Assembly (NCBI GenBank): GCA_046351595.1
Contig: JAXLYE010000005.1
Coordinates: 788,735 to 852,734 of the forward strand
Direction of reading: 5' to 3'
Origin: Polyangia bacterium
Lineage (GTDB): Bacteria > Myxococcota_A > Polyangia > Palsa-1104 > JAEUJZ01
Length of the DNA stretch: 64,000 nt
In this document: positions 17,949-64,000 of the stretch, piece after piece
Numbering within the stretch: the stretch's first letter is position 1
Layout of the letters: each line of letters opens with the position of its first letter
Program-made: the position numbers and the translations under genes
The notes under the pieces: generated by a model
Database searches by the model: none
What the model saw: only the letters and a program-made list of their open reading frames with translations
What the model was told of the DNA's origin: nothing

Positions 17949-18133
17949 GGAAGTACGGCTGCCGATGGTAGCAGTTCAGCCCACACGAACTCCTGTCCAG
18001 GACCGCTCCCTGATCCCCTCCTGATCCCCGCCTGGGACCGATTCTTCGGAGGGGATTTGTGAGCTTGTGAAAGGCTTTACTGTTTGGGTAAGATCAAGAC
18101 AGACAAAGCCGACTCGGGCAGTAACGGGGCGAG

Positions 18134-18958
18134 ATGAAGAAGTGGATCTTGCTGAGCATTTTGTTTGGAGCAGTCGTTCCAAGAAAAGCTGCGGCCGAGC
18201 CTCCTCCGCAGCTTGCCGTGCGGGACAGGACCGCGCTTCGAGGTTGGGCACATATCAAGTTCGGCCAAGATATCGGATACACGATCACGAACGGCGTGGA
18301 TACCATCGCATTCTTACGTGTGCCGCCCCAGTTCCGGAAGGATATCGAGTCGATGCAGAGCCCTGATGGCCGCAGCTACCCGAGGGTCATCTTGAGCTGT
18401 GCCAACGAGATGTACGCGGTGATTGGCGATTTCGGGGGCAGGCAAGACGCGAAGACATTGGCCCCCATGACTGCTTTCGGTTGTCCACGCAGCGATGCCG
18501 AGCACTTCGAGTTTCCCGACGAAGAAGACTTTCAGGAACTGGTTTCTGTGCGAGAGCCTAGGCGCTTCCTACATTGGGATGGTAACAAGAGTCGTCGAGG
18601 GCCGGTCGCGATGTATGCTTCAGACGAAGAGACCCTGGTCGTTCAAGCTGCACTCCCTGCAGCTGACCGTACTGAAGCGGGCATCCGCAAAAAGGTGCAA
18701 GCGCTGGTCTGTAGAGATGAGCAAAGCGAAGGCCTTCGGGTCGAGACCCGGAGCGGCGTCAGGCTTTTTATAGGACATGACGGTACGGAGGCAGTCGCCG
18801 CTCGGTTCCTCTCCTGTGAACGTGGCACGCTGTTCATCATCAGCAGAGTCGAGAAGGGCAGCCAGGAAAGAGCGGTCTCGAACGCGCTGCAAGTGATCTG
18901 TCGAGCGGGCAAGTCCCAGTCGCTCCGATCACTCGTCAAGCCAGCGCCAGGCACATGA
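18134..18958 (+). CDS. Secreted hypothetical protein, in a lower-GC patch.
   Basis: MKKWILLSILFGAVV is a signal peptide. There is no family match. Local GC is about 55% against about 70% background. Confidence 0.55.
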   Translation: MKKWILLSILFGAVVPRKAAAEPPPQLAVRDRTALRGWAHIKFGQDIGYTITNGVDTIAFLRVPPQFRKDIESMQSPDGRSYPRVILSCANEMYAVIGDFGGRQDAKTLAPMTAFGCPRSDAEHFEFPDEEDFQELVSVREPRRFLHWDGNKSRRGPVAMYASDEETLVVQAALPAADRTEAGIRKKVQALVCRDEQSEGLRVETRSGVRLFIGHDGTEAVAARFLSCERGTLFIISRVEKGSQERAVSNALQVICRAGKSQSLRSLVKPAPGT

Positions 18959-39976: not shown

Positions 39977-40084
39977 GACTCCGACCTGTCCGCACCCTGG
40001 CAGGCGGCCTGGGGGAGGGCCCGGTGTGCGGTCGATCTCATTAGAGCACGCCTGTCCGCCAGGGCGCGAGCACCGAGAGCCGAT

Positions 40085-40176
40085 GCCCTGCCGATGCGCC
40101 GCCGATGTGCCGCCGATGTGCCGCCGATGTGCCGCCGATGCGCTGCCGATAGGCTGCCGATGCGCCGGCGATGCGC
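40085..40176. repeat. 12-bp tandem repeat (GCCGATGYGCCG), about 7.5 units, in the divergent region between the kinase 5' fragment and the small membrane protein gene.
   Basis: ccgatgcgccgccgatgtgccgccgatgtgccgccgatgtgccgccgatgcgctgccgataggctgccgatgcgccggcgatgcgcc is read directly. Confidence 0.7.
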
Positions 40177-40284
40177 CCGCGCTGTCGCGGCAAGGCTCCC
40201 GGAAGACGACGGCTCCGGCTCGCCGTTGGCACCGCGGTCGGTGGCTGCCTTGACGGCGGCGGCGAGCGGCGCGCACCATGGCGC

Positions 40285-49872: not shown

Positions 49873-51294
49873 ATGGTAGGGAAGACATCCCAGCGCACAC
49901 AGTCCGGGGTGGGGCCGCGCCAGGGGACGAGTTCTGGCACGGGGGCGGGCCTCATCGATCTGCCTGCGCCCAAGCGGGCACCGGCGACGGAGACCTCGGG
50001 GTCGAGCGCCGCGCTGACCGGTCGCGGCGGCGGGGCCGTCGAGCGCCGTGCGCAGCTGCCGGGGGCCGGGGGCTCGGCGGGCAGCTCGCTGACCGGGGCC
50101 GCGGGCGGGCGCGTCGTGACGAGTGATCTGCCGGCGCCGCTGGGACCGCGGCCGCGCAGCCGCAGCAAGAACCCGCGCATGCCCGCACGGATCGACGCCG
50201 GCCCGCGCTCGCAGGTGAACCTGCCGCGCAGCGCGCCGGAGATCGACGCCAGCCTCGAGATCACGGCGGACATGCCGAAGTCGCTGCTCGATCTGGAGCT
50301 GCCGAGTGAGGTGCTGCTGCCGCCGAGCCCGGCGCCCGAGGCGGCCCCGGTACCGAAGCGCGCGCTGGGGGTCGCGCTGAGCCCCGCCGCGGGCACCACC
50401 GGGGCCGCCCTGCCGGCGGTCGCACCGACGGTGAGCCCGGCGGCCCCGGTGGTGCCCGCGATCGTTCCGCCGGCGGCGGCAGCGGCGCCGCGCGAGGCGA
50501 CGGTGTCGGGGCTGGCGCTCGCGCCGGTGGCGGTGCTGCCGACCGCGGGCGCGCCGGGTGGAGCAAGGGGCAGCGCGGCGGCGGGGCCGGACCCCGGGGC
50601 CGCGGCGGGCGGGGGGCGCGGGTCCAAGCCCGGCCCGTCGCCGGCGGTGCCCGTGGCGCTGCCGCGGACGTCGTCCGAGCCGGTGGCGCTGCCGCCGCCG
50701 CCCGGGACGCCGCTGGTGCTCGGCGCGCTCGGCGACTCGGGCCGCCACCCGGCCCTGGTGGTGCCGTCGGTGCCGTCGGTGCCGTCGGTGCCGTCGGTGC
50801 TGGCGCCTGCGGTGAAGCCTGCGGGCCCCGCGGCCGCGCCGGCGCAGGCTGCGGCCGCCGCGCCTGCGGCCGAGGCGACCGCGCCCGCGGCGCCGCCACC
50901 GTCGGGGTCACCGGGCCCCGCGTCAGCGCCCGCGGCGCCAGCCGCACCGTCCAACGCACCGTCCAGCGCACCTTCCACTGGGCCCGCGGCTCCGCCGGCC
51001 GCGCCGTCTCGCGCCGCCGCACCCGGCTCCGCCTCGGCCGAGACCCTCGACGAGAAGAGCGCCGCGGCGCCGCGCCCGCCGTCGACGGACTCCGAGTCCA
51101 CCGCCGAGCCCAGGCCGTCCGCGGGCAGCGAGCTCTCGGCCAGCGACAGCTCCATCCCCAGCTCCGACACGGCGCAGCAGCGCGCGGCCCTGGCGCCGAG
51201 CGTGGTGCGGCTGCGCGGCCTGCTGATCTTCCTGGCGCTGCTGGTCATCGCGCTGCTCGTCCTGATTGCGCAGAAGACCGGCCTGTTGCCCTGA
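49873..51294 (+). CDS. Pro/Ala/Ser-rich low-complexity protein with a C-terminal TM anchor.
   Basis: Strong GC3 bias in this frame. It ends with LLIFLALLVIALLVLIA followed by a stop. It contains a 9-bp tandem repeat (gtgccgtcg x4, VPSVPSVPS) at 50761-50799. The antisense 683-aa ORF is Gly/Arg-rich. Confidence 0.5.
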   Translation: MVGKTSQRTQSGVGPRQGTSSGTGAGLIDLPAPKRAPATETSGSSAALTGRGGGAVERRAQLPGAGGSAGSSLTGAAGGRVVTSDLPAPLGPRPRSRSKNPRMPARIDAGPRSQVNLPRSAPEIDASLEITADMPKSLLDLELPSEVLLPPSPAPEAAPVPKRALGVALSPAAGTTGAALPAVAPTVSPAAPVVPAIVPPAAAAAPREATVSGLALAPVAVLPTAGAPGGARGSAAAGPDPGAAAGGGRGSKPGPSPAVPVALPRTSSEPVALPPPPGTPLVLGALGDSGRHPALVVPSVPSVPSVPSVLAPAVKPAGPAAAPAQAAAAAPAAEATAPAAPPPSGSPGPASAPAAPAAPSNAPSSAPSTGPAAPPAAPSRAAAPGSASAETLDEKSAAAPRPPSTDSESTAEPRPSAGSELSASDSSIPSSDTAQQRAALAPSVVRLRGLLIFLALLVIALLVLIAQKTGLLP

Positions 51295-51418
51295 AGCACA
51301 GCGACGGGACGGGGTGAACGACGCGGCGGGGTCCGGCCGCATCCCGGCCCGCGTGAATGCGCGCAGGCAGTAGCCAGTCTGCTGCAGGGCGCGATACGAT
51401 CGCGAACCGGAGGAGTCC

Positions 51419-52807
51419 ATGACCATCCGTCTCTCTCGGAGCAGGACCGCCGAGCTCCTGGCCCTTCTCGCCGCCACCGCGTCTGTCGGCTCCGCGGTCG
51501 CGGTCGCGGCCAAGCCGGCGGCCAAGGCCAAGCCCGCGCCTGCGGCCAAGGCCAAGGCCGCGCCGGCCGCCGGCAAGCCCGGTGCCCCGGCCGCCCCGGC
51601 GCCGGTCGCGCCCGCCGCCGCGCCCGCCGCCGCGCCCGCCGCTCCGGCCCCGGCCTCGACGCCTGCTCCGGCTCCGGCCCCGGCCGCCCCGACGACAGCG
51701 GCTCCCAGCGCGTCGGCCGCGGCACCTGCCGTCCCGCCGCCGGCTCCGCGCCCGCCGCCGGGCAGCGCCCTGGTCAGCACCTGGGTGCAGGCCGCGGACA
51801 GCAGCGGCTACCAGGACGGCCCGCCGGCCGAGGCGCGCTTCGACGAGGTCGCGGGCGCCGCGGTGATCGGCGACGAGCTGTATCTTAGCGACAGCGGCAA
51901 CGGCGTGATCCGGCGCGTCACCCTGCCAGGCGGTGTGGTTTCGACGCTGACCGGCAAGCAGCGCGACTTCAACACCGTCAACGGCACCCTGGCCGAGTCG
52001 CGCTTCTACAAGCCCGGCCCCCTGGTCGCCGTCGGCAAGACGCTGTACGTCGTGCAGCTTGCCACCGAGCACGGCGGCTCGTGCATCCGCAGCATCGACC
52101 TTGCGGCCGGCCGCACCGCGACGCTGACCGGCAGCTGCCAGCGGCAGGGAAACCTCGACGGCGGCCCCGACACCGCCCTGTTCTCCAGCCCGCGCGCGCT
52201 CGCCACCGACGGGCAGAACCTGTACGTCGGCGACTACGTCCGCGTCCGCGCCGTGTCGCTGGCCACCGGCGCCGTCACCACGCTGGTCGGCGAGGCCGAC
52301 GCGCAGTGCGACTTCGGCCTGCAGCGGATCTGCAAGGGCGGCTGGGTCGACGGCGTCGGCAACGAGGCGCGGCTGTCCGGCATCCGCGCCCTGACGCTAG
52401 CCGGCAGCACCTTGTACATCGCCGACGGCGACGCCATCCGCGCGCTCGATCTGCCGTCGCGCAAGCTGAGCACCGTGATCGGCGCGCAGCGCTCGCAGAA
52501 CAGCGGCAACGACGGCATCGGCGCCAAGGCGGGCCTGACCAGCATCGCCGCGCTCGCGCCCCAGAGCGGCGGCCTGCTCGTGCTGCAGGGCCCGTACTTC
52601 GCCGGCCTGCGCTCCCTCAACCTGGCGAGCAACGCCCTCGTCTCGGTCACCGGCCTGTCGATCCCCGGCTTCGCCCGCGGCAGCCGCGACACCGACGGAC
52701 CCGCGCCCCAGGCCGACTTCAAGAACCCGAAGCTGCTGGTGCCCTACGGCGACCGCGTGCTCGTCATCCACCAGCACGGCCGCGTGCGCGCCTTCGAGAA
52801 GTTCTAG
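51419..52807 (+). CDS. Secreted NHL-repeat beta-propeller protein with an Ala/Pro-rich N-terminal linker.
   Basis: A GGAGGAG RBS and a signal peptide are present. There are repeated units of the form LY.SD..N..IRRV / LYVGD...VRAV / LYIADGDAIRALDL, which are NHL repeats. Confidence 0.7.
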   Translation: MTIRLSRSRTAELLALLAATASVGSAVAVAAKPAAKAKPAPAAKAKAAPAAGKPGAPAAPAPVAPAAAPAAAPAAPAPASTPAPAPAPAAPTTAAPSASAAAPAVPPPAPRPPPGSALVSTWVQAADSSGYQDGPPAEARFDEVAGAAVIGDELYLSDSGNGVIRRVTLPGGVVSTLTGKQRDFNTVNGTLAESRFYKPGPLVAVGKTLYVVQLATEHGGSCIRSIDLAAGRTATLTGSCQRQGNLDGGPDTALFSSPRALATDGQNLYVGDYVRVRAVSLATGAVTTLVGEADAQCDFGLQRICKGGWVDGVGNEARLSGIRALTLAGSTLYIADGDAIRALDLPSRKLSTVIGAQRSQNSGNDGIGAKAGLTSIAALAPQSGGLLVLQGPYFAGLRSLNLASNALVSVTGLSIPGFARGSRDTDGPAPQADFKNPKLLVPYGDRVLVIHQHGRVRAFEKF

Positions 52808-53678: not shown

Positions 53679-55454
53679 ATGGACGACAAGTTCGCCGTCG
53701 CCCGCACGCTGCGAGAGATCGGGCTCCTCCTCGAGCTCAAGGGCGAGAACCGCTTCCGGGCCCGCGCCTACGAGACGGGAGCCCGCGCGCTCGAGGAGCT
53801 GCGCGAGGAGATCCCGACCCTGCTCGCGGAGCACCGCCTGACCGCGCTCCCCGGCATCGGGCCCGCGCTCGCCTCGGTGATCTCGGAGCTTGCGACGACC
53901 GGGCGCTGCTCGCAGCTGGATCGGCTGCGGCAGGAGGTGCCGCGCGGCGCGCTCGAGCTGGCCGAGCTGCCGGGGCTGAACCTGAAGAAGATCCAGCAGC
54001 TCGCGGCGGGCCTGGGCATCGACAGCGTGGCGTCGCTGAAGACGGCGTGCGACACGGGCCGGCTGACCGAGGTCAAGGGCTTCGGGCCCAAGACGCAGCA
54101 GAAGCTGCTCGACAACATCGCGCGCAGGGAGCGGCGCGACGAGCGCGTGGTGCTGGTCGATGCGCTGGCCGAGACCGAGCCGCTGGCCGCGTACCTGCGC
54201 AGCCACGCCGCGGTGCACAGGCTCGAGCGGGCCGGCGCGCTGCGCCGCTGGGCCGAGACCGTGACGGACGCGGAGCTGGTCGCGGCCAGCCCGGAGCCCG
54301 AGACCGTCATCGAGCACCTGCTCGCGTATCCCAAGGTCGTGCGCACCGTGTCGCGGCGGCCGGGCGCGGTGACCGTGCGCCTGTCGAGCGGGCTCTTTGT
54401 CGCGCTGCACGTCGTCGCGCCGAGCGAGCTCGCGGCGGCGCTGTGGCGGCTGACCGGCAGCCCCGAGCACGTGGCGCGGCTGGAGGCGCTGGCCGCGATG
54501 CGCGGCGTCGACCTGGACGCGACGCTCGAGCTGGCGCCCGCGGACGAGCCCAAGGGCGAGCCAGAAGGCGAGTCAAAAGGCGAGTCCAAGGGCGGGTCCA
54601 AAGACGACGTCGAGGCCGTGGAGCGAAGCTTGTACGCGCGGCTCGGCCTGTCCTATATCGCGCCCGAGCTGCGCGAGGATCACGGTGAGATCCAGGCCGC
54701 AGCCGACGGCAGCCTGCCGCAGGATCTGGTCACGCTCGCCGACATCCGCGGCATGACGCACTGCCACACCGTGTACTCGGACGGCAAGCACACCGTCGAA
54801 GAGATGGCGCGCGCGGCCGAGGCCATGGGCATGCAGTACCTGACCATCACCGATCACTCGCCGAGCGCGCACTACGCCGGCGGCGTGCAGCTCGATCGGC
54901 TCAAGCGGCAGTGGGACGAGATCGCGCGCGTGCAGGAGCGCGTGAAGATCCGCCTGCTGCGCGGCACCGAGAGCGACATCCTAGCCGACGGCGCGCTCGA
55001 CTACCCGGACTCCATCCTCGAGAAGCTCGACGTCATCATCGCCAGCATCCACTCGCGCATGAAGATGGACGAGGACGCGATGACGCGGCGGCTGGTGAGC
55101 GCGATGCGCCTGCCGTTCTTCAAGATCTGGGGGCACGCGCTCGGTCGGCTGCTGCTGCGCCGCGAGCCCTTCGCCTGCCGTGTCGAAGAGGTGCTGGACG
55201 CGGTGGCCGAGTCGCGCGCCGCCATCGAGATCAACGGCGATCCGCACCGCCTCGACCTGGCGCCGGAGTGGACGCGCCGGGCGCGCGCGCGCGGCATCCG
55301 CTTCGTCATCTCGACCGACGCGCACTCGATCCATGGCCTTTGCAACCTGCGCTACGGCGTGCACGCGGCGCGGCGCGGCTGGCTGCGGCGCGGCGAGGTC
55401 CTGAACACGCTGGCCGCGGCCGAGTTCGCGGCGGTCGTGAAGCCCACCGGTTGA
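53679..55454 (+). CDS. polX: Family X DNA polymerase with a C-terminal PHP phosphoesterase domain (PolX).
   Basis: N-terminal HhH/8-kDa module (LPGIGPALASVISEL) and a Pol beta-like palm. The C-terminus reads GMTHCHTVYSDG...ITDHS...DAHS, which is a PHP domain. The start at MDDK is placed from the ORF-track frame. Confidence 0.85.
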   Translation: MDDKFAVARTLREIGLLLELKGENRFRARAYETGARALEELREEIPTLLAEHRLTALPGIGPALASVISELATTGRCSQLDRLRQEVPRGALELAELPGLNLKKIQQLAAGLGIDSVASLKTACDTGRLTEVKGFGPKTQQKLLDNIARRERRDERVVLVDALAETEPLAAYLRSHAAVHRLERAGALRRWAETVTDAELVAASPEPETVIEHLLAYPKVVRTVSRRPGAVTVRLSSGLFVALHVVAPSELAAALWRLTGSPEHVARLEALAAMRGVDLDATLELAPADEPKGEPEGESKGESKGGSKDDVEAVERSLYARLGLSYIAPELREDHGEIQAAADGSLPQDLVTLADIRGMTHCHTVYSDGKHTVEEMARAAEAMGMQYLTITDHSPSAHYAGGVQLDRLKRQWDEIARVQERVKIRLLRGTESDILADGALDYPDSILEKLDVIIASIHSRMKMDEDAMTRRLVSAMRLPFFKIWGHALGRLLLRREPFACRVEEVLDAVAESRAAIEINGDPHRLDLAPEWTRRARARGIRFVISTDAHSIHGLCNLRYGVHAARRGWLRRGEVLNTLAAAEFAAVVKPTG

Positions 55455-55673: not shown

Positions 55674-56711
55674 ATGACCACCTTTGGCTCTCGGGTCCTG
55701 CCCCTGGTCGCGCTGCTGTTGGGCGGCTGCCTGCAGTCGGAACAGCCCGATCCGTCGCGCGCACCCCGGTCGCCGCCGCCGCCGCCGCCGTCATTCTTCA
55801 GCGACGCCGTGGTGACGAACGGCGTTCAGCTCAACGGCGCGCAGCTGAACGGCGTTCAGCTCAACGGCGTACAGCTGAACGGCGTTCAGCTCAATGGCGT
55901 GCAGCTGAACGGCGTTCAGCTCAATGGCGTGCAGCTGAACGGCGTTCAGCTCAACGGCAGCCAGCTCAGCGCCTCGGCGATCGACGGGACCCAGTCGATC
56001 ATGTCGGGCGTGGCGCTCAGCGGCGCGGTCTTCACGCTGACCGTGACCGAGGCCGGCGCGCAGCTCGGCTACGAGCTCAAGCTCGACTCGGTCTACGTCG
56101 ACCCGCTGAACCCGAGCGGCGACGTCTACCTGTATGACGTCTCGTTCCGGCGCCCGGGCGCCACGGCGTGGGCCAGCCTGTGCAAGGACGGCGCGGGCAA
56201 GGCCGTGCCGGCGCTGCTGCTCGCCAACTACTGGGATCCGAGCACCGGCAGCCGGGTCGACGCGCCGGGCGCGATCACGCTGGCCTGCAGCAACGCGGCG
56301 CTGGGCAAGTGCGTGCGCTGGGGCTACCGGCCGTGGGCCACCTCTACGATGTGCTCGGAGGGCGTGTGCCGCACGGTCTCGCTGGCCGATCACCACCAGG
56401 CGTGCACGCGCATGGTGCGCGCCGACTACTGCGGCAACGGCACCGCGCACACCGTCGACGGCACGCCGATCGACGTGTTCGACAACCTGGCGCCGCAGGC
56501 GCAGTCGCGCAGCACCAGCTGGCAGGTCGAGGCGAAGTGGACGCCGCGCGGCGCGACCTGCCTGGGCAAGACGCGGGCGACGCAGCTGCTCGACGAGGCC
56601 AAGTACCCGGACTGCAACGGCGACGGCAAGAAGGACGACTTCAGCAAGTGCGACAACGACGACTACACGCTGTCGCTGCCGAACCTGCTCGGGAACGGGT
56701 TCGACAGGTAG
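55674..56711 (+). CDS. ADYC-domain lipoprotein with an N-terminal pentapeptide-repeat array.
   Basis: A GGGAG RBS is present. LLLGGC is the lipobox. About 10 units of NGVQL follow, then [10 protein letters not shown]...[11 protein letters not shown]. It is a paralogue of 1060..2073. Confidence 0.8.
55818..55968. repeat. 15-bp tandem repeat (aacggcgttcagctc), about 10 units, encoding pentapeptide repeats NGVQL.
   Basis: Read directly in the sequence. Units show only synonymous or conservative variation. Confidence 0.7.
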
Positions 56712-56739: not shown

Positions 56740-60666
<3,927 letters not shown>

Positions 60667-60943
60667 TCGCGCCCTGTCCCCACCTCCGAGCTGCTGCGCG
60701 CGGGCCGCTGCCCCGCAAGAGTGCGGACATTCCGCGCTCTCCCCGTGCTCCCTTATTGTAGGGATCGCCGGCAAGGGTGCGCAACGTCGGAGCGGCGCAC
60801 GCAGACACGTCGCTGCGCGCGGAAGGGGCCGCGGACCGGACGCAGCCCCGACACCCTAAGGGAGAGTCCGGGGGCGCGCAGGGAGAGCCGCCAGGGGACT
60901 GCGGGAATCCCGGAGTCTGGGAGCGGGAGTGGGAGGAACCGCG

Positions 60944-61396
60944 CTAGCGGCCGGCGTAGCGGCGGTGGTCGACCATCAGGCAGCGATCCTGCACGACGGT
61001 GATCCCGGCCTCGGCGAGGCGGCGGGCGGTGGTGTTGTCGCGGATGCCGAGCTGCAGCCACACCGCGCGCGGTCGCGCCGCGAGCAGATCCGGCAGGTGC
61101 GCGGCCACGTCCTCGGAGCGCCTGAACACATCGACGATGTCGATGGTGCCAGGACCTGGCACGTCGGCGATCCGGCGGTACACGGGCCGGCCGAGGATGG
61201 TCTTGACCTCGGGGTAGTAGACCGGCACCGGGATGACCTCGACGCCGGCGTCGGCGAGGTAGCGCGCGACATAGAAGGCGGGCTGCGTCGCCTGCTGCTC
61301 GGTCTTGATGCCGAGCACCGCGATGCGGCGCGCGCCGCGCACGAGCTCTGCGACCCGCGCCTCGTTGTCTTCGATCAGGAACTGGCTGACGTCCAT
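60944..61396 (-). CDS. CoA-binding domain protein (YccU-like).
   Basis: RIAVLGIKTEQQATQPAFYVARYLADAGVEVIPVP...ILGRPVY..IADVPGPIDIVDVFRR is the CoA_binding_2 pattern. Confidence 0.75.
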   Translation of the reverse strand: MDVSQFLIEDNEARVAELVRGARRIAVLGIKTEQQATQPAFYVARYLADAGVEVIPVPVYYPEVKTILGRPVYRRIADVPGPGTIDIVDVFRRSEDVAAHLPDLLAARPRAVWLQLGIRDNTTARRLAEAGITVVQDRCLMVDHRRYAGR

Positions 61397-61477
61397 CCCG
61401 CCACTTTAACCGCGCCCCGGCGCTACAGCCACAAGAACGGGGGCGCCCGGCGGACCCGGGAGGCCGAGAGGAGTCGC

Positions 61478-61584
61478 AGAGGGAATCCGGACGGGAGGAA
61501 AGGAAACTGAAGGGAATCCGAAGGGAGTCTGAATGGAATCTGAAAGGAAGCTGAAGGGAGCCCGAAAGGAGTCTGAAAGGAGCG
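61478..61584. repeat. Degenerate 11-bp tandem repeat (GGGARTCTGAA-like), about 8 units, at a GC-content boundary.
   Basis: ggaaactgaa gggaatccgaa gggagtctgaa tggaatctgaa aggaagctgaa gggagcccgaa aggagtctgaa agg is read directly. Confidence 0.6.
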
Positions 61585-61690
61585 GCTCAGTAGGAGCCGT
61601 TGAGCAGGACGCCGATGCGGCTGGCCCCGGGGTAGCGCAGCACCACGTCGGGGCGGCCGTCGCCGTTGACGTCCCTGTCAAGAACTTTTT
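61585..61690 (-). pseudogene. About 30-codon C-terminal remnant of an FG-GAP/VCBS-repeat protein.
   Basis: Minus-strand translation gives ...LDRDVNGDGRPDVVLRYPGASRIGVLLNGSY* (D.NGDG motif). Stops lie immediately upstream. Confidence 0.3.
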
Positions 61691-62072
61691 TCTTACCGTC
61701 GGCGTCGGCTTAATTTAGCAGGCAGCCGAACGACGCTCTCCTGGCCATTAACAGTAGGATTAATTACGAACTTGTAGTTGCATGTAGGCTGCAAGCGTGA
61801 GCGGACATTACCGGCCGTAAGGCTGCGCACTGATACGGAACGCTTGGATTTGTGAGCACTCACCGTCGGGCGCGATTGTGAGCGGTCAGTCAGCGTGCGC
61901 CTTGGAGCAAACGAAAGATGCGCTGGGAACATTGAGACTGGAAATAGCTCGCTCACCGACGGAGGTCAGAGCGATGAGGGCGCAGCCAAGGAAAGGAGCA
62001 GCGCCAAGTGGATGTCAGCTGGGCGGCTTACTTGCCGAGACTGCCTACATCATGGTGGCCACTGCCTTCCCT

Positions 62073-64000
62073 TCATATGGCGCCGCCTGTCTTATACTTA
62101 AAACTTCTGTTTTCAAAAGCTGGCCGTGTTCCCTCTAACACATCGACTATATGCCTACTAATGATTCCATCTTCTAGTGAGCCGCTATCATAACGCACTT
62201 CATGTCCATTAGTCTTATCGATCGAAGTAAAGATGACCTGCTCCGAATCGCATACTACCGCGATGTTGGGATTGTGAGTTATGACAAACAGTTGCCTTCG
62301 CTCCTTTGCCGCTTTCATGCACGGAACTAACACGTTCTTAATTGACTGGTTATCAAGGTTTTCTTCAGGCTGATCAATAATGAGCGGACTACTCCCCTTA
62401 TCAATAAGCAAGTAGAAGACTAAAAGCAGAAGTCCACGTTCACCGGGCGACAGTTCTTGAAGTCCTTTATTTCCGACTCGGAGCGCATATCTTGGTTCAA
62501 GGTATTCCATTTCATAAAGAAAATTATATAGGCCCTCAATCGAAACGTTCTTTTTTAGCTGCCGCTCAATAGGATGTCCGGTCGATCTCTTGCTGGGAGC
62601 ACGCCTATCTTCTTTCAAAGCTCCCATGATGTCTTCGATAATGTCAATTGCAGATGTTTCCTTACCAAAGATCCCTTCCTGTAACATGTCATCAAGGCGC
62701 TTGCGGCTCTCGTCCACTCCGCAGAACGAACCACCCACGCCATGATTGATATGACCTAAGAATCTCTCTGCAAACGGAGAACTATCAATGATAACCTCAA
62801 AAGATACTCGGAAAGCGTTGAAGGCAAGCTGTGATTTATTCTTCTGCTCGCGCTCGATAAAATCGAGAACTGGTCCATAGTATTCTCGGTAGACATTGGC
62901 TCGTTTCGTTACTTCTTGATAGATTCTTGTGGCCGTTATGCGCCGTTCGCTGTAAAGGGACTCCAACTCTTCAGGATAACGTTGTGCAAGTTCAATCTGA
63001 TGCTTATAGTAAAGCAGCGAGTCAGGCGTGTCTTGACTGCCAAGTATCTGCTTCCGTCGCTTCTCCCAATTGCTAAGCTCTGTGAGATACCGCTGATAGC
63101 CTTGATTCGGCGCATCCAGGGCAGCTTGCAAAGTAGTCTGCTCTGCCTCGAGGGCTGCTAATTGCCTGGCAAAGCCTTGAGGATCCTGAGAGTCTAGAAT
63201 AGCAGTAAGACTAAGTATGCGTTTGTCGGTTTCCTGTAGAAGCTCTTCAACCGGATGCTTCTGCACCTTGGCTTCAATCAACCCCGAGTGCTCGAACTCT
63301 AACTCAGCCGTCTCTTTTTCTACAAAGGCTAGAACATCGAGGTAGTAGTTGTGAAATTTATTCAGCCTCTCAAGTATTTTCGCCGCCCTCTCGCGCCTGA
63401 CGTATTGCGAAGCCAGCTCTCGCTCATGCTCTGCTTGCCTTTCGAGCAAATCCTTTACGCTGTCTTTCAGGGCATCGATTTTTTTGATGACCTCAGTGCT
63501 TTCAGCGGACATGGACTGATCCGCTCTAGGGTCACGCACTTCTACCGGGCGGCTTGCCTCGTGTATACTTAACTCTAGTTCCTTTGCCTTCACTTTCTCA
63601 TCTAAGAAAATGGCAATAGCTTCAGTGGATTTTTGCTCAAGGACTACTATTTTATGGTTAATGTCTCGAAGGTGGCGCTTTAGGCTGGAAGTGGTGCGAA
63701 TTATCTCATCAGTCCGATAATCGATGAGTTCTTCAAGGGTGGCTTTGCCGAGACGCAGCGGCGGCTCTACATGAGAAAAGATGACCCGGTCTAGCTCGTT
63801 GCGAAACTCCTTCTGTGCTTCCTCCTCATGCTCATTGCACAGTTTTTCTAGATACCCTTGTGGCAGATAACGAACGCGCTCAAGCTCATCTTGACTGCTC
63901 GAGCAAGCTAGCTGCCGTTCGAACTCCTCCGATGTGCTCCACACGGCGTTAGCGGCAAAATCTTCCGAGCGATTCCTTCTCAAACCAGCATCACGCCGTT
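62073..64000 (-). CDS. SMC-like ABC-type ATPase (coiled-coil, RecF/RecN/SbcC-like). It is 5' partial: the Walker A region lies beyond the window end. It is probably a defence or DNA-repair ATPase.
   Basis: The C-terminus carries the ABC signature LSPGERGLLLLVFYL, Walker B LIIDQPEENLD, a D-loop and an H-loop FVITHNP. A long heptad/coiled-coil middle is present. The ORF stays open to the window edge. Local GC is about 45-50%, against about 70% background. Confidence 0.75.
   Translation of the reverse strand, partial: RRDAGLRRNRSEDFAANAVWSTSEEFERQLACSSSQDELERVRYLPQGYLEKLCNEHEEEAQKEFRNELDRVIFSHVEPPLRLGKATLEELIDYRTDEIIRTTSSLKRHLRDINHKIVVLEQKSTEAIAIFLDEKVKAKELELSIHEASRPVEVRDPRADQSMSAESTEVIKKIDALKDSVKDLLERQAEHERELASQYVRRERAAKILERLNKFHNYYLDVLAFVEKETAELEFEHSGLIEAKVQKHPVEELLQETDKRILSLTAILDSQDPQGFARQLAALEAEQTTLQAALDAPNQGYQRYLTELSNWEKRRKQILGSQDTPDSLLYYKHQIELAQRYPEELESLYSERRITATRIYQEVTKRANVYREYYGPVLDFIEREQKNKSQLAFNAFRVSFEVIIDSSPFAERFLGHINHGVGGSFCGVDESRKRLDDMLQEGIFGKETSAIDIIEDIMGALKEDRRAPSKRSTGHPIERQLKKNVSIEGLYNFLYEMEYLEPRYALRVGNKGLQELSPGERGLLLLVFYLLIDKGSSPLIIDQPEENLDNQSIKNVLVPCMKAAKERRQLFVITHNPNIAVVCDSEQVIFTSIDKTNGHEVRYDSGSLEDGIISRHIVDVLEGTRPAFENRSFKYKTGGAI

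What the first reader, a model, noticed from the sequence alone, without database searches (positions are those of the whole stretch)
61478..64000. Low-GC segment at the right edge with a 5'-partial SMC-like ABC ATPase, bounded by an 11-bp repeat array and an FG-GAP gene fragment
GC drops from about 70% to about 45-50% at about 61.7 kb. The only gene there is a long coiled-coil ABC ATPase (signature LSPGER, Walker B LIIDQPE, H-loop ITHN) with an 80-aa C-terminal extension. It is of the kind found in anti-phage systems (Lamassu/Septu/DndD/Wadjet-like) or RecN/SbcC repair proteins. The boundary is marked by about 8 degenerate 11-bp repeats and a 30-codon FG-GAP remnant. This is the signature of a second foreign insertion whose remainder lies outside the window.
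Basis: partly seen in the sequence, partly recalled or inferred. Interest (0 to 1): 0.6.

Follow-up and report, generated by a model that had tools for sequence, protein, structure and literature searches.

The report
Recently acquired TrlF nuclease-ATPase gene islet
The low-GC stretch at the right edge is a real and very recent foreign insertion in a myxobacterial (Polyangia) genome; it carries one large gene of the named but functionally untested TrlF family, a nuclease-like domain fused to a Rad50/SMC-type ATPase that probably acts as a single-gene defence against phages or plasmids.

Summary
GC falls from about 0.72 to 0.43-0.51, and third-codon-position GC falls from 0.93-0.96 to 0.48. 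The minus-strand ORF 62073-64000 is the C-terminal 641 residues of a 1068-residue protein from a Polyangia MAG. The full protein matches NCBIfam TrlF family AAA-like ATPase end to end (627 bits, cutoff 350).

Its architecture is an N-terminal PHP phosphoesterase domain, then a Rad50/SMC-like ABC ATPase head split by a roughly 300-residue coiled coil, then a conserved C-terminal module. The nuclease is therefore fused, not a partner gene. All catalytic motifs are intact. The nearest validated defence protein is Ppl, but this protein is not a Ppl member (97 bits, cutoff 1000).

The insertion is demonstrated. Relatives at 94-95% identity carry an intact 400-codon FG-GAP gene where the window keeps only the last 28 codons. 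Homology breaks at 61670-61673, in a 4-nt microhomology. An independent single-run assembly reproduces the junction exactly.

The 11-bp array is a native repeat of variable copy number. It is also present in relatives without the island, so it does not mark the boundary.

TrlF relatives have no constant partner gene. They sit beside restriction-modification genes, recombinases and insertion sequences, and on plasmids.

This is a new member of a known kind, of modest interest.

The parts
62073..64000 (-). 3' part of the trlF-family gene: codons 428-1068 plus the stop codon of a 1068-codon ORF. It encodes most of the coiled coil, the ABC signature LSPGE (residue 943), Walker B IIDQPE (967), the H-loop ITHN (1000) and a conserved 65-residue C-terminal module. 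The 5' part, with the PHP domain and Walker A GNKGGGKS (392), lies beyond the window at extended coordinates 64001-65279.
   Evidence: Translation. 100% identity to P0001. NCBIfam NF045780 TrlF scores 327 bits for the fragment and 627 bits for the full protein, covering profile positions 1-944. Motif positions. AF2 model and Foldseek hits to Rad50, MukB, SMC, JetC, LmuB and RecN heads.
61674..62072 (-). 399-nt stretch of island DNA downstream of the trlF stop codon, GC about 0.56. No gene, RNA family, terminator or repeat was detected. It is not conserved in the closest trlF relatives.
   Evidence: 100% identical to Logan contig L001 down to position 61670. No Rfam match. No promoter or terminator pattern. 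No blastn or tblastx match to other loci. No remnant of a TrlG-like gene.
61670..61673 (.). Recombination junction. A 4-nt microhomology (GACG on the minus strand) is shared by the island end and by codons 373-374 of the FG-GAP gene.
   Evidence: Island homology (L001) runs down to 61670. Native homology (L164, L167) starts at 61673. The junction was reproduced with 0 mismatches over 2079 nt in an independent single-run assembly, L171.
61587..61673 (-). Remnant of a native FG-GAP repeat gene: the last 28 codons (DVNGDGRPDVVLRYPGASRIGVLLNGSY) and the stop codon. The first 372 codons are missing at this position.
   Evidence: Pfam FG-GAP E=1.1e-5. The intact 400-residue orthologue in L167 ends with the same 28 residues and scores FG-GAP_3 133 bits. 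GC3 of the remnant is 1.0.
61498..61581 (.). Native intergenic 11-bp tandem array (7.6 copies) between the FG-GAP stop codon and the CoA-binding gene start. It is not part of the island.
   Evidence: TRF result. The array is present with different copy numbers in L164, L165, L167, L168 and L170; L167 has an intact FG-GAP gene there, and the other four show native FG-GAP coding sequence up to their contig start, with no island sequence. Other short-period arrays occur elsewhere in the window.
60944..61396 (-). Native flanking gene, a CoA-binding protein. It was used as the anchor to find the uninterrupted site in relatives.
   Evidence: Pfam CoA_binding_2 E=8e-33. Orthologues at 94-95% identity found and their contigs fetched.

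Best explanation
Shown.
- A small islet of foreign DNA has been spliced into a native FG-GAP gene of a Polyangia bacterium. The low-GC tract is about 4 kb: window 61670 to about 65.6 kb in extended coordinates.
- The splice used illegitimate recombination at a 4-nt microhomology. No integrase, transposase, tRNA or terminal repeats were found in the ~4.25 kb recovered (L001, L172); the left boundary of the foreign DNA was not reached.
- The event is recent. There is no GC amelioration, and the island is 100% identical to a copy that continues into a different flank in a sibling sequencing run.
- The islet carries a small Xre-type HTH gene followed by one 1068-codon gene of the TrlF family.
- TrlF is a single polypeptide with three parts. 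First, a PHP-fold metal-dependent phosphoesterase domain (residues about 12-350, with conserved H21, H23, D60, E109, H144, D300, H302). Second, a Rad50/SMC-type ABC ATPase head (Walker A at 392; signature, Walker B and H-loop at 943-1003) split by a roughly 300-residue antiparallel coiled coil. Third, a conserved C-terminal module.

Inferred mechanism.
- TrlF works as a self-contained, single-chain analogue of the SbcCD or Mre11-Rad50 machines. Two ATPase heads would engage around ATP and DNA, and the nucleotide state of the heads would gate the fused PHP nuclease, which degrades DNA from ends or nicks.
- By analogy with Ppl, the one characterised protein with this architecture, the enzyme would be held off by cellular NTPs. 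It would be released when infection depletes nucleotides and exposes free 3' ends.
- On this reading TrlF is a one-gene defence against phages or other invading DNA, with the upstream HTH as its repressor.

The confidence of 0.58 is for the whole statement including the inferred defence mechanism. The identity of the gene and its foreign origin alone I put at about 0.95.
For: Identity and architecture.
- TrlF NCBIfam hit, end to end, 627 bits against a cutoff of 350.
- PHP domain: 5 of 30 family members hit Pfam PHP (best E 1.5e-10) and 2 hit PHP_C; the metal-ligand residues are invariant or nearly so.
- The N-terminal AF2 model (pLDDT 85) matches RNase AM and the PolC and Pol III PHP domains, E 3e-5 to 1e-3.
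- The full model (pLDDT 81) matches Rad50, MukB, SMC, JetC, LmuB and RecN heads, E 1e-9 to 1e-5.

Foreign origin.
- GC and GC3 contrast.
- Intact 400-codon FG-GAP gene at the same site in relatives at 94-95% identity, with homology breaking at 61673.
- Junction independently assembled from run SRR26348423 with 0 mismatches over 2079 nt.

Defence-type context of the family.
- No conserved partner gene in 163 loci.
- Genes of the five R-M-type clusters (type I hsdM/S/R, an N6_N4 methylase, an SNF2/ResIII helicase) lie within 6 kb in 37 loci.
- Serine and tyrosine recombinases and a Schlafen-AlbA_2 protein recur nearby.
- 204 plasmid records carry a match covering at least 80% of the protein; the examples inspected sit between insertion sequences.
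- Across 136 loci the gene is on average 4 GC points below its flanks, and 55 are more than 5 points below.

Ppl comparison.
- Ppl is the best PADLOC hit.
- Ppl is described as a single-gene PHP 3'-5' ssDNA exonuclease plus NTPase, inhibited by NTPs and activated by nucleotide depletion and 3'-OH ends (review PMC12904381). It protects against T7 (PMC11482910).
Against: - No TrlF-family protein has been shown to protect against phage.
- In the only experimental study of the founding locus, the Photorhabdus trlR-trlF-trlG operon, the temperature-restriction phenotype mapped to trlG and no role was found for trlF (PMC7554251).
- Similarity to Ppl is limited: 97 bits against a cutoff of 1000, best over the C-terminal 120 residues. 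The mechanistic analogy therefore rests on shared architecture.
- Nuclease activity of the PHP domain is inferred from conserved ligands and fold only.
- Only 37 of 163 loci have these R-M-type genes nearby, and many contigs are too short to judge.
- The HTH pairing is seen in just 2 of 163 loci.
- The far junction of the islet was not recovered, so a simple insertion cannot be told apart from an insertion plus deletion.
Confidence: 0.58

Rival explanations
1. TrlF is a DNA-repair or recombination enzyme, a fused SbcCD/Mre11-Rad50 analogue. It would process hairpins or broken ends for the cell's own benefit, not for defence.
For: The ATPase head is structurally closest to Rad50, SMC and RecN. 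A phosphoesterase joined to a Rad50-like ATPase is the logic of SbcCD.
Against: - The distribution is patchy. The gene is absent from the same site in relatives at 94-95% identity.
- GC3 of 0.48 in a genome at 0.95 marks it as recent cargo.
- It is frequent on plasmids and next to R-M genes and recombinases.
- RecN and SMC_N models are not met.
Confidence: 0.1
2. TrlF is one component of a TRL-type module (TrlR regulator, TrlF, TrlG Schlafen-AlbA_2/HATPase_c_4 protein), with TrlG as the active partner. This copy lacks trlG and would be an orphan, inactive or only partly active.
For: The family name comes from that operon, and its phenotype maps to trlG. A TrlG-like gene lies within 6 kb of trlF in 10 of 163 loci, directly adjacent in several. 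Here a small regulator gene precedes trlF, as trlR does.
Against: - More than 90% of loci have no TrlG-like neighbour.
- No trlG remnant lies downstream here.
- The ORF and every catalytic motif are intact.
- In the plasmid examples inspected the gene stands alone between insertion sequences.
Confidence: 0.15
3. TrlF targets plasmids or other mobile elements in competition between elements, in the manner of Wadjet exclusion or an addiction module, instead of targeting phages.
For: It has an SMC-like head and coiled coil, as JetC and LmuB do. It is abundant on conjugative plasmids: 822 of 1143 matching plasmid records, though that count includes partial matches.
Against: There is no kleisin, KITE or JetD-like partner gene. 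The coiled coil is short compared with loop-extruding SMCs. The closest validated relative, Ppl, acts on phage.
Confidence: 0.12
4. The low-GC segment is an assembly chimera: DNA from another organism wrongly joined to the Polyangia contig.
For: Logan contig L001 (run SRR26348419) carries the identical island, but after 61670 it continues with 13 different bases. Contig L166 (run SRR26348422) carries the native flank preceded by 4 bases that match the intact FG-GAP gene.
Against: - A separate single-run assembly (SRR26348423, L171) spans the junction and matches the window with 0 mismatches over 2079 nt.
- The overlap at the junction is only 4 nt, too short to mislead a k-mer assembler.
- The closest trlF relatives are likewise low-GC genes inside high-GC contigs, one of them flanked by myxobacterial-type genes.
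Confidence: 0.03

Closest known systems
TrlF (PluDJC_RS01880) of the Photorhabdus laumondii temperature-restriction locus; NCBIfam NF045780 'TrlF family AAA-like ATPase'
   Same: Full-length match above the curated cutoff (627 against 350 bits, profile positions 1-944). Same PHP ('histidinol phosphatase') plus ATPase protein. A small regulator gene sits directly upstream, as trlR does.
   Different: There is no trlG (AlbA_2/HATPase_c_4) gene downstream. The host is a high-GC myxobacterium, not a gammaproteobacterium. The HTH could not be compared with TrlR because no TrlR sequence was available. TrlF itself has no demonstrated function.
Ppl (Gao_Ppl), the single-gene anti-phage system of E. 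coli
   Same: Same architecture: one polypeptide with an N-terminal PHP domain and an ABC/SMC-type NTPase, acting alone. It is the best PADLOC hit, and it shares the conserved C-terminal module after the H-loop. Ppl's reported mechanism is the model used here.
   Different: This protein is not a member. NCBIfam Ppl scores 96.6 bits against a cutoff of 1000. The best-scoring stretch on the PADLOC Ppl model covers only profile positions 774-888 of 894.
SbcCD and Mre11-Rad50
   Same: A Rad50-type ABC head with an inserted coiled coil, coupled to a metal-dependent phosphoesterase nuclease. These are the best structural matches for the ATPase part.
   Different: The nuclease is a PHP fold, not a calcineurin-like fold. 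It is fused in cis instead of being a separate subunit. No CxxC zinc hook was seen at the coiled-coil apex on reading residues 660-702 (not formally tested). The gene is mobile and patchily distributed, not a core gene.
   Same: Shared ABC/SMC-type head. Foldseek hits to JetC, LmuB and AriA. Weak PADLOC hits to AriA, GajA and PtuA over the signature and Walker B region.
   Different: The sequence hits cover only 60-90 residues at 17-31 bits. None of the partner genes (LmuA, JetABD, PtuB, DndBCE, AriB) is present in the islet or recurs beside TrlF genes.

Membership tests
TrlF family AAA-like ATPase (NCBIfam NF045780) | Whole-protein score above the curated cutoff (350 bits), with end-to-end coverage of the 944-position profile | tested here: met
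   P0001 scores 627.1 bits, E 8.5e-188, residues 11-1063 on profile positions 1-944. The window fragment alone scores 327 bits on positions 366-944.
TrlF family AAA-like ATPase (NCBIfam NF045780) | N-terminal PHP phosphoesterase domain with its metal-ligand residues | tested here: met
   H21, H23, D60, E109, H144, D300 and H302 are invariant or nearly invariant in 30 members. Pfam PHP is hit by 5 of 30 members, best E 1.5e-10; this protein itself scores only 18 bits, below the cutoff. Foldseek matches RNase AM and the PolC and Pol III PHP domains.
TrlF family AAA-like ATPase (NCBIfam NF045780) | Operon context trlR-trlF-trlG, as in the founding Photorhabdus locus | tested here: not met
   An upstream small HTH gene is present, but there is no TrlG-like gene or remnant downstream. 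This context is not general in the family: it is found in 10 of 163 loci.
Ppl anti-phage protein (NCBIfam NF042955; PADLOC PDLC02208) | Equivalog score of at least 1000 bits, or near-full-length coverage of the Ppl model | tested here: not met
   96.6 bits on NCBIfam. On PADLOC, 70.8 bits, with the best stretch covering profile positions 774-888 of 894.
Ppl anti-phage protein (NCBIfam NF042955; PADLOC PDLC02208) | Protection against phage by a single gene, and NTP-inhibited 3'-5' exonuclease activity | not testable with these tools
   Needs plaque assays and biochemistry. These properties are known only for E. coli Ppl.
Spaf_1101 family AAA-like ATPase (NCBIfam NF045781) | Score of at least 475 bits | tested here: not met
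   124.9 bits; best-scoring stretch C-terminal (residues 904-1064).
RecN, SbcC and SMC housekeeping ATPases | Match to the RecN, SMC_N or SbcC models above cutoff, in a native-GC, syntenic context | tested here: not met
   RecN PRK10869 scores 12.9 bits against 418. Pfam SMC_N scores 37 bits against 40. GC3 is 0.48 against a host value of 0.95. The gene is absent from the same site in close relatives.
Lamassu, Wadjet, Septu and Dnd SMC-like defence systems | Match to the LmuB, JetC, PtuA or DndD models, together with the cognate partner genes | tested here: not met
   PADLOC gives only a weak PtuA hit (16.6 bits) and no LmuB, JetC or DndD hit at E <= 1e-3. No partner genes are in the islet or recur near relatives.

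The most novel reading that the evidence does not exclude
TrlF may be an autonomous anti-phage or anti-plasmid nuclease-ATPase in its own right. It would be a large sister family of Ppl, about 1800 clusters at 50% identity, and would not need TrlG. This locus would then show such a gene in the act of transfer: the recombinant junction, the apparently empty recipient site and a copy with a different continuation all coexist at 100% identity in one sample series, and the join was made by 4-nt microhomology without any recombinase. That would make it a natural example of how single-gene defence cargo enters high-GC genomes.
Probability: 0.4. Interest if true: 0.45.

Novelty: new member of a known kind. 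Interest (0 to 1): 0.3.

Why it matters
On its own this is an ordinary piece of accessory DNA: one more member of an already named protein family that is widespread on plasmids and in defence-island-like neighbourhoods.

Two things give it modest value.

1. TrlF is a large family (about 1800 clusters at 50% identity, in many phyla) whose function has never been tested. Its only characterised relative by architecture, Ppl, is a defence nuclease with an unusual nucleotide-sensing trigger. An intact TrlF paired with its own regulator in a myxobacterium is a reasonable test case.

2. The insertion is unusually well documented for a metagenomic locus. The break point is mapped to a 4-nt microhomology. 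The uninterrupted gene is seen in relatives. The junction is reproduced in an independent assembly. This shows integrase-free capture of a defence-type gene.

Tried and rejected
- Source genome. It is not in the genome-contig collection, so the contig beyond 64000 could not be read directly. The rest of the gene came from Logan contigs L001 and L172.
- Mobility signals. No tRNA in 55-64 kb. No convincing terminal direct or inverted repeats in the islet. No Rfam family, promoter or terminator pattern in 61.3-62.3 kb.
- The 399-nt spacer and the left flank of L001. Neither matches any other locus or the window.
- Conserved partner gene. None found in 163 loci. The upstream HTH recurs only in the closest relative, L083.
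- Flank conservation. DNA homology to the closest relatives, L082 and L083, is confined to the coding region, so no conserved element ends could be defined.
- Solved structures. A sequence search of the PDB with the protein and with the N-terminal profile gave nothing useful: one ABC transporter and some designed TIM barrels.
- Literature. Text searches for 'TrlF family' and for a primary paper on the Ppl mechanism found nothing in the held library. The origin of the name was found through trlG.
- Phage genomes. They rarely carry the gene: 7 partial hits.
- Far junction. It was not found. The gene fragment to the left of the HTH (60 residues) has no Pfam match and is not the FG-GAP gene.
- Junction-spanning ORFs. 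Looking up the minus-strand ORF 61406-61681 found nothing. The plus-strand ORF 61533-61718 did succeed.
Full report
**1. Observation**

The window averages about 0.70 GC. No 1-kb bin falls below 0.579 except the last two, at 0.457 and 0.498. At 300-nt resolution GC is 0.70-0.75 up to 61.5 kb, 0.55-0.58 from 61.5 to 62.1 kb, and 0.43-0.51 from there to the edge.

Third-codon-position GC makes the contrast sharper. It is 0.48 for the ATPase gene, against 0.96 for the neighbouring Ser/Thr kinase gene, 0.93 for the CoA-binding gene and 1.0 for the FG-GAP remnant.

The minus-strand frame 62073-63998 is open to the window edge. The tail after the H-loop is 65 residues, not 80.

Tandem Repeats Finder confirms an 11-bp array at 61498-61581, with 7.6 copies and 78% matches. 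No tRNA gene lies in 55-64 kb.

**2. What the gene is**

The fragment is 100% identical to the C-terminal 641 residues of P0001. That protein has 1068 residues and is annotated as hypothetical (locus tag U1A78_25810) in a Polyangia MAG, on a contig of 854,962 bp.

A Logan contig from run SRR26348419 (L001, 4166 bp) holds the whole gene. It is identical to the window over all 2331 overlapping bases.

The full protein matches NCBIfam NF045780, 'TrlF family AAA-like ATPase', end to end: 627 bits against a cutoff of 350, on profile positions 1-944. The next families are far below their cutoffs:
- Spaf_1101: 125 bits against 475.
- Ppl: 97 bits against 1000.
- RecN: 13 bits against 418.

In PADLOC the best hit is Ppl at 71 bits, with the best stretch covering only the last 115 profile positions. 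After that come short hits to MAD3, AriA, GajA and PtuA.

**3. Architecture**

N-terminal domain. An alignment of 30 N-terminal regions shows H21, H23, D60, E109, H144, D300 and H302 invariant or nearly invariant. That is the metal-ligand pattern of the PHP superfamily, by my own knowledge of that family. Five of the 30 members hit Pfam PHP (best E 1.5e-10) and two hit PHP_C. This protein itself scores only 18 bits, below the cutoff. An AlphaFold model of residues 1-352 (pLDDT 85, pTM 0.86) finds RNase AM and the PHP domains of PolC and Pol III alpha as its only significant PDB matches (E 3e-5 to 1e-3, probability 1.0), though with low TM-scores because of insertions.

ATPase part. The full-length model (pLDDT 81) has an ABC head formed by residues about 358-500 and 825-1035. 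Long helices between about 515 and 813 interrupt the head and form an antiparallel coiled coil. The best PDB matches are Rad50, MukB, SMC, JetC, LmuB and RecN heads (E 1e-9 to 1e-5).

Motifs. Walker A GNKGGGKS (392), signature LSPGE (943), Walker B IIDQPE (967) and H-loop ITHN (1000) are all intact.

**4. The family and its name**

'TrlF' comes from the temperature-restriction locus of Photorhabdus laumondii (PMC7554251). That operon has three genes:
- trlR, a 79-residue putative regulator.
- trlF, annotated there as a histidinol phosphatase.
- trlG, with AlbA_2 and HATPase_c_4 domains.

Deleting the whole operon, and point mutations in trlG, allowed growth at 36 C. No mutation fell in trlF, and the authors could assign it no role.

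The family is large. A full scan of 1.84 billion representatives found 1784 clusters at E <= 1e-30. In the plasmid collection, 204 records carry a match covering at least 80% of the protein, and those listed are annotated as TrlF family. Phage genomes rarely carry it.

**5. Genomic neighbourhood of relatives**

I called ORFs within 6 kb of the gene in 163 loci and clustered them. No neighbour is shared by more than 17 loci, so there is no obligatory partner.

The recurrent neighbours are:
- Type I restriction-modification subunits HsdS, HsdR and HsdM.
- An N6_N4 DNA methylase, often with an SNF2/ResIII helicase.
- Large serine recombinases and tyrosine integrases.
- A Schlafen-AlbA_2/HATPase_c_4 protein, which is the TrlG type, in 10 loci.
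- RhuM and ParB-like proteins.

Thirty-seven loci hold at least one gene of the five R-M-type clusters (HsdS, HsdR, HsdM, N6_N4 methylase, SNF2/ResIII helicase).

On a Burkholderia plasmid and a Vibrio plasmid the gene stands alone between insertion sequences. Across 136 loci with enough flank, the gene's GC is on average 4.1 points below its surroundings, and 55 loci are more than 5 points below. This is the pattern of mobile defence-type cargo. It is association, not proof of function.

**6. The closest relatives**

P0002 (55-59% identity; locus L083) and P0004 (45-50% identity; locus L082) are also low-GC genes, at 0.44, inside high-GC contigs at 0.61-0.65. L082 carries a Ser/Thr kinase gene and an FHA-sigma54 activator gene next to it, typical of myxobacteria.

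L083 has the same small HTH gene directly upstream. jackhmmer finds this HTH only in L001 and L083 among the 163 loci. DNA similarity among the three loci is confined to the coding region, so no conserved element ends exist.

**7. The insertion**

I used the native CoA-binding gene (60944-61396, minus strand) as an anchor to find orthologous loci.

The uninterrupted site. In L167 (94% identical protein, GC 0.72) an intact 400-codon FG-GAP gene lies directly upstream of the CoA-binding gene (FG-GAP_3 133 bits, FG-GAP 86 bits). Window homology to L167 is 87.5% over 777 nt and starts exactly at window 61673, which is codon 373 of that gene. The last 28 residues are identical: DVNGDGRPDVVLRYPGASRIGVLLNGSY. 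L164, an ENA contig from a relative at 95% identity, shows the same break.

The junction. Island homology (L001) runs down to 61670. The junction is therefore a 4-nt overlap, GACG on the minus strand, at 61670-61673.

Assembly artefact. This was a concern for two reasons. L001 continues after the overlap with 13 unrelated bases (CCTAGGCCAATTA). And L166, from sibling run SRR26348422, carries the native flank at 100% identity but begins with CGGC, as in the intact gene. However, Logan contig L171 from a third run, SRR26348423, equals window 60575-62653 with no mismatch over 2079 nt. It spans the CoA-binding gene, the repeat array, the remnant, the junction and 580 nt of trlF. The junction is therefore real.

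Interpretation. Three forms seem to coexist in one sample series: the recombinant, an apparently uninterrupted recipient site (supported by only 4 nt), and the island with another continuation. This fits a very recent, possibly polymorphic acquisition, or a truncated copy of a longer element.

Left boundary. The left end was not determined. L172 extends 99 nt further than L001 and shows the C-terminal 60 residues of an unidentified gene (GC about 0.63) upstream of the HTH. It is not the FG-GAP gene. No integrase, transposase or terminal repeats were found.

**8. The 11-bp array**

The array occupies the native intergenic region, 100-185 nt upstream of the CoA-binding start codon. It is present in every relative examined, with a different number of units; the intergenic length ranges from 158 to 190 nt. 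L167 has an intact FG-GAP gene at the site, and the others show native FG-GAP coding sequence up to their contig start.

The window holds other short-period arrays, for example 11 bp x 9 at 40079-40177. The array is a habit of this genome, not a scar or boundary mark of the insertion.

**9. Mechanism**

Shown:
- The domain composition.
- The intact catalytic motifs.
- The foreign origin.
- The stand-alone, mobile distribution of the family.

Inferred:
- TrlF acts as a single-chain analogue of SbcCD or Mre11-Rad50, in which ATP-driven engagement of two heads around DNA gates the fused PHP nuclease.
- It serves as a one-gene defence, as Ppl does. Ppl is described as a PHP 3'-5' ssDNA exonuclease plus NTPase, inhibited by bound NTPs and activated by phage-induced nucleotide depletion together with free 3'-OH ends (review PMC12904381). 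It restricts T7 and is countered by a Bas63 protein (PMC11482910).
- The upstream HTH is most simply a repressor of the module.

I put the defence reading at about 0.55-0.6. The rivals are a housekeeping repair role (0.1), dependence on a missing TrlG partner (0.15), plasmid or element competition (0.12) and chimera (0.03).

**10. Verdict**

The family is TrlF, with Ppl as the nearest validated relative, not Lamassu, Wadjet, Septu or Dnd. The partner nuclease is fused to the ATPase. The repeat array is unrelated to the insertion.

This is a new member of a known, named family whose function is still untested. Interest is modest. It rests on the clean documentation of a recombinase-free capture event and on TrlF being an untested sister of Ppl.

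Noticed in passing
window 61498-61581; L164 167-350, L167 1538-1695, L170 940-1097: The 11-bp purine-rich unit array upstream of the CoA-binding gene is conserved in position in relatives at 94-95% identity, but the number of units differs (intergenic length 158-190 nt). The period is about one helical turn and the array lies in the likely promoter region, so it may be a regulatory or DNA-bending element.
   Followed up: partly
window 40079-40177, 2689-2727, 54545-54607: Other short-period tandem arrays (11 bp x 9.0, 11 bp x 3.5, 12 bp x 5.2) occur elsewhere in the window. An 11-bp period is not a multiple of three, so the two 11-bp arrays are probably intergenic. This genome seems to accumulate them.
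   Followed up: no
window 18001-19000 and 22001-27000: A second region of lowered GC (0.58-0.65 against about 0.70). It was not examined.
   Followed up: no
window 50001-52000: Very high GC (0.77-0.82), with a dense cluster of degenerate 9-33-bp tandem repeats. This is likely a low-complexity Ala/Pro/Gly-rich coding region.
   Followed up: no
window 55817-55958: A well-preserved 30-bp (or 15-bp) tandem repeat: 4.7 copies at 95% matches for the 30-bp period.
   Followed up: no
L001 4154-4166; L166 1-8: Sibling-run contigs diverge from the window exactly at the junction. The island continues as CCTAGGCCAATTA in run SRR26348419. The native flank is preceded by CGGC, as in the intact FG-GAP gene, in run SRR26348422. 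This suggests that the island exists in a second context and that an uninterrupted allele is present in the same sample series.
   Followed up: partly
L082 8314-11484; L083 860-4033: The two closest trlF relatives (45-59% identity) are also low-GC genes (0.44) embedded in contigs at 0.61-0.65 GC, with the low-GC tract confined to the gene. This clade seems to stay unameliorated, or to be repeatedly re-acquired, in high-GC hosts.
   Followed up: partly
L167 2-289: In the uninterrupted relative, the gene upstream of the FG-GAP gene ends in an AAA_21-type ATPase domain (Pfam E 1e-9) at native GC. It is unrelated to TrlF.
   Followed up: no
L052, L107, L120, L121 (gaps of 16-52 nt to trlF): In these loci a Schlafen-AlbA_2/HATPase_c_4 gene of the TrlG type lies directly next to trlF, recreating the Photorhabdus trlF-trlG pair in unrelated bacteria and metagenomes. 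Ten of 163 loci have such a gene within 6 kb.
   Followed up: partly
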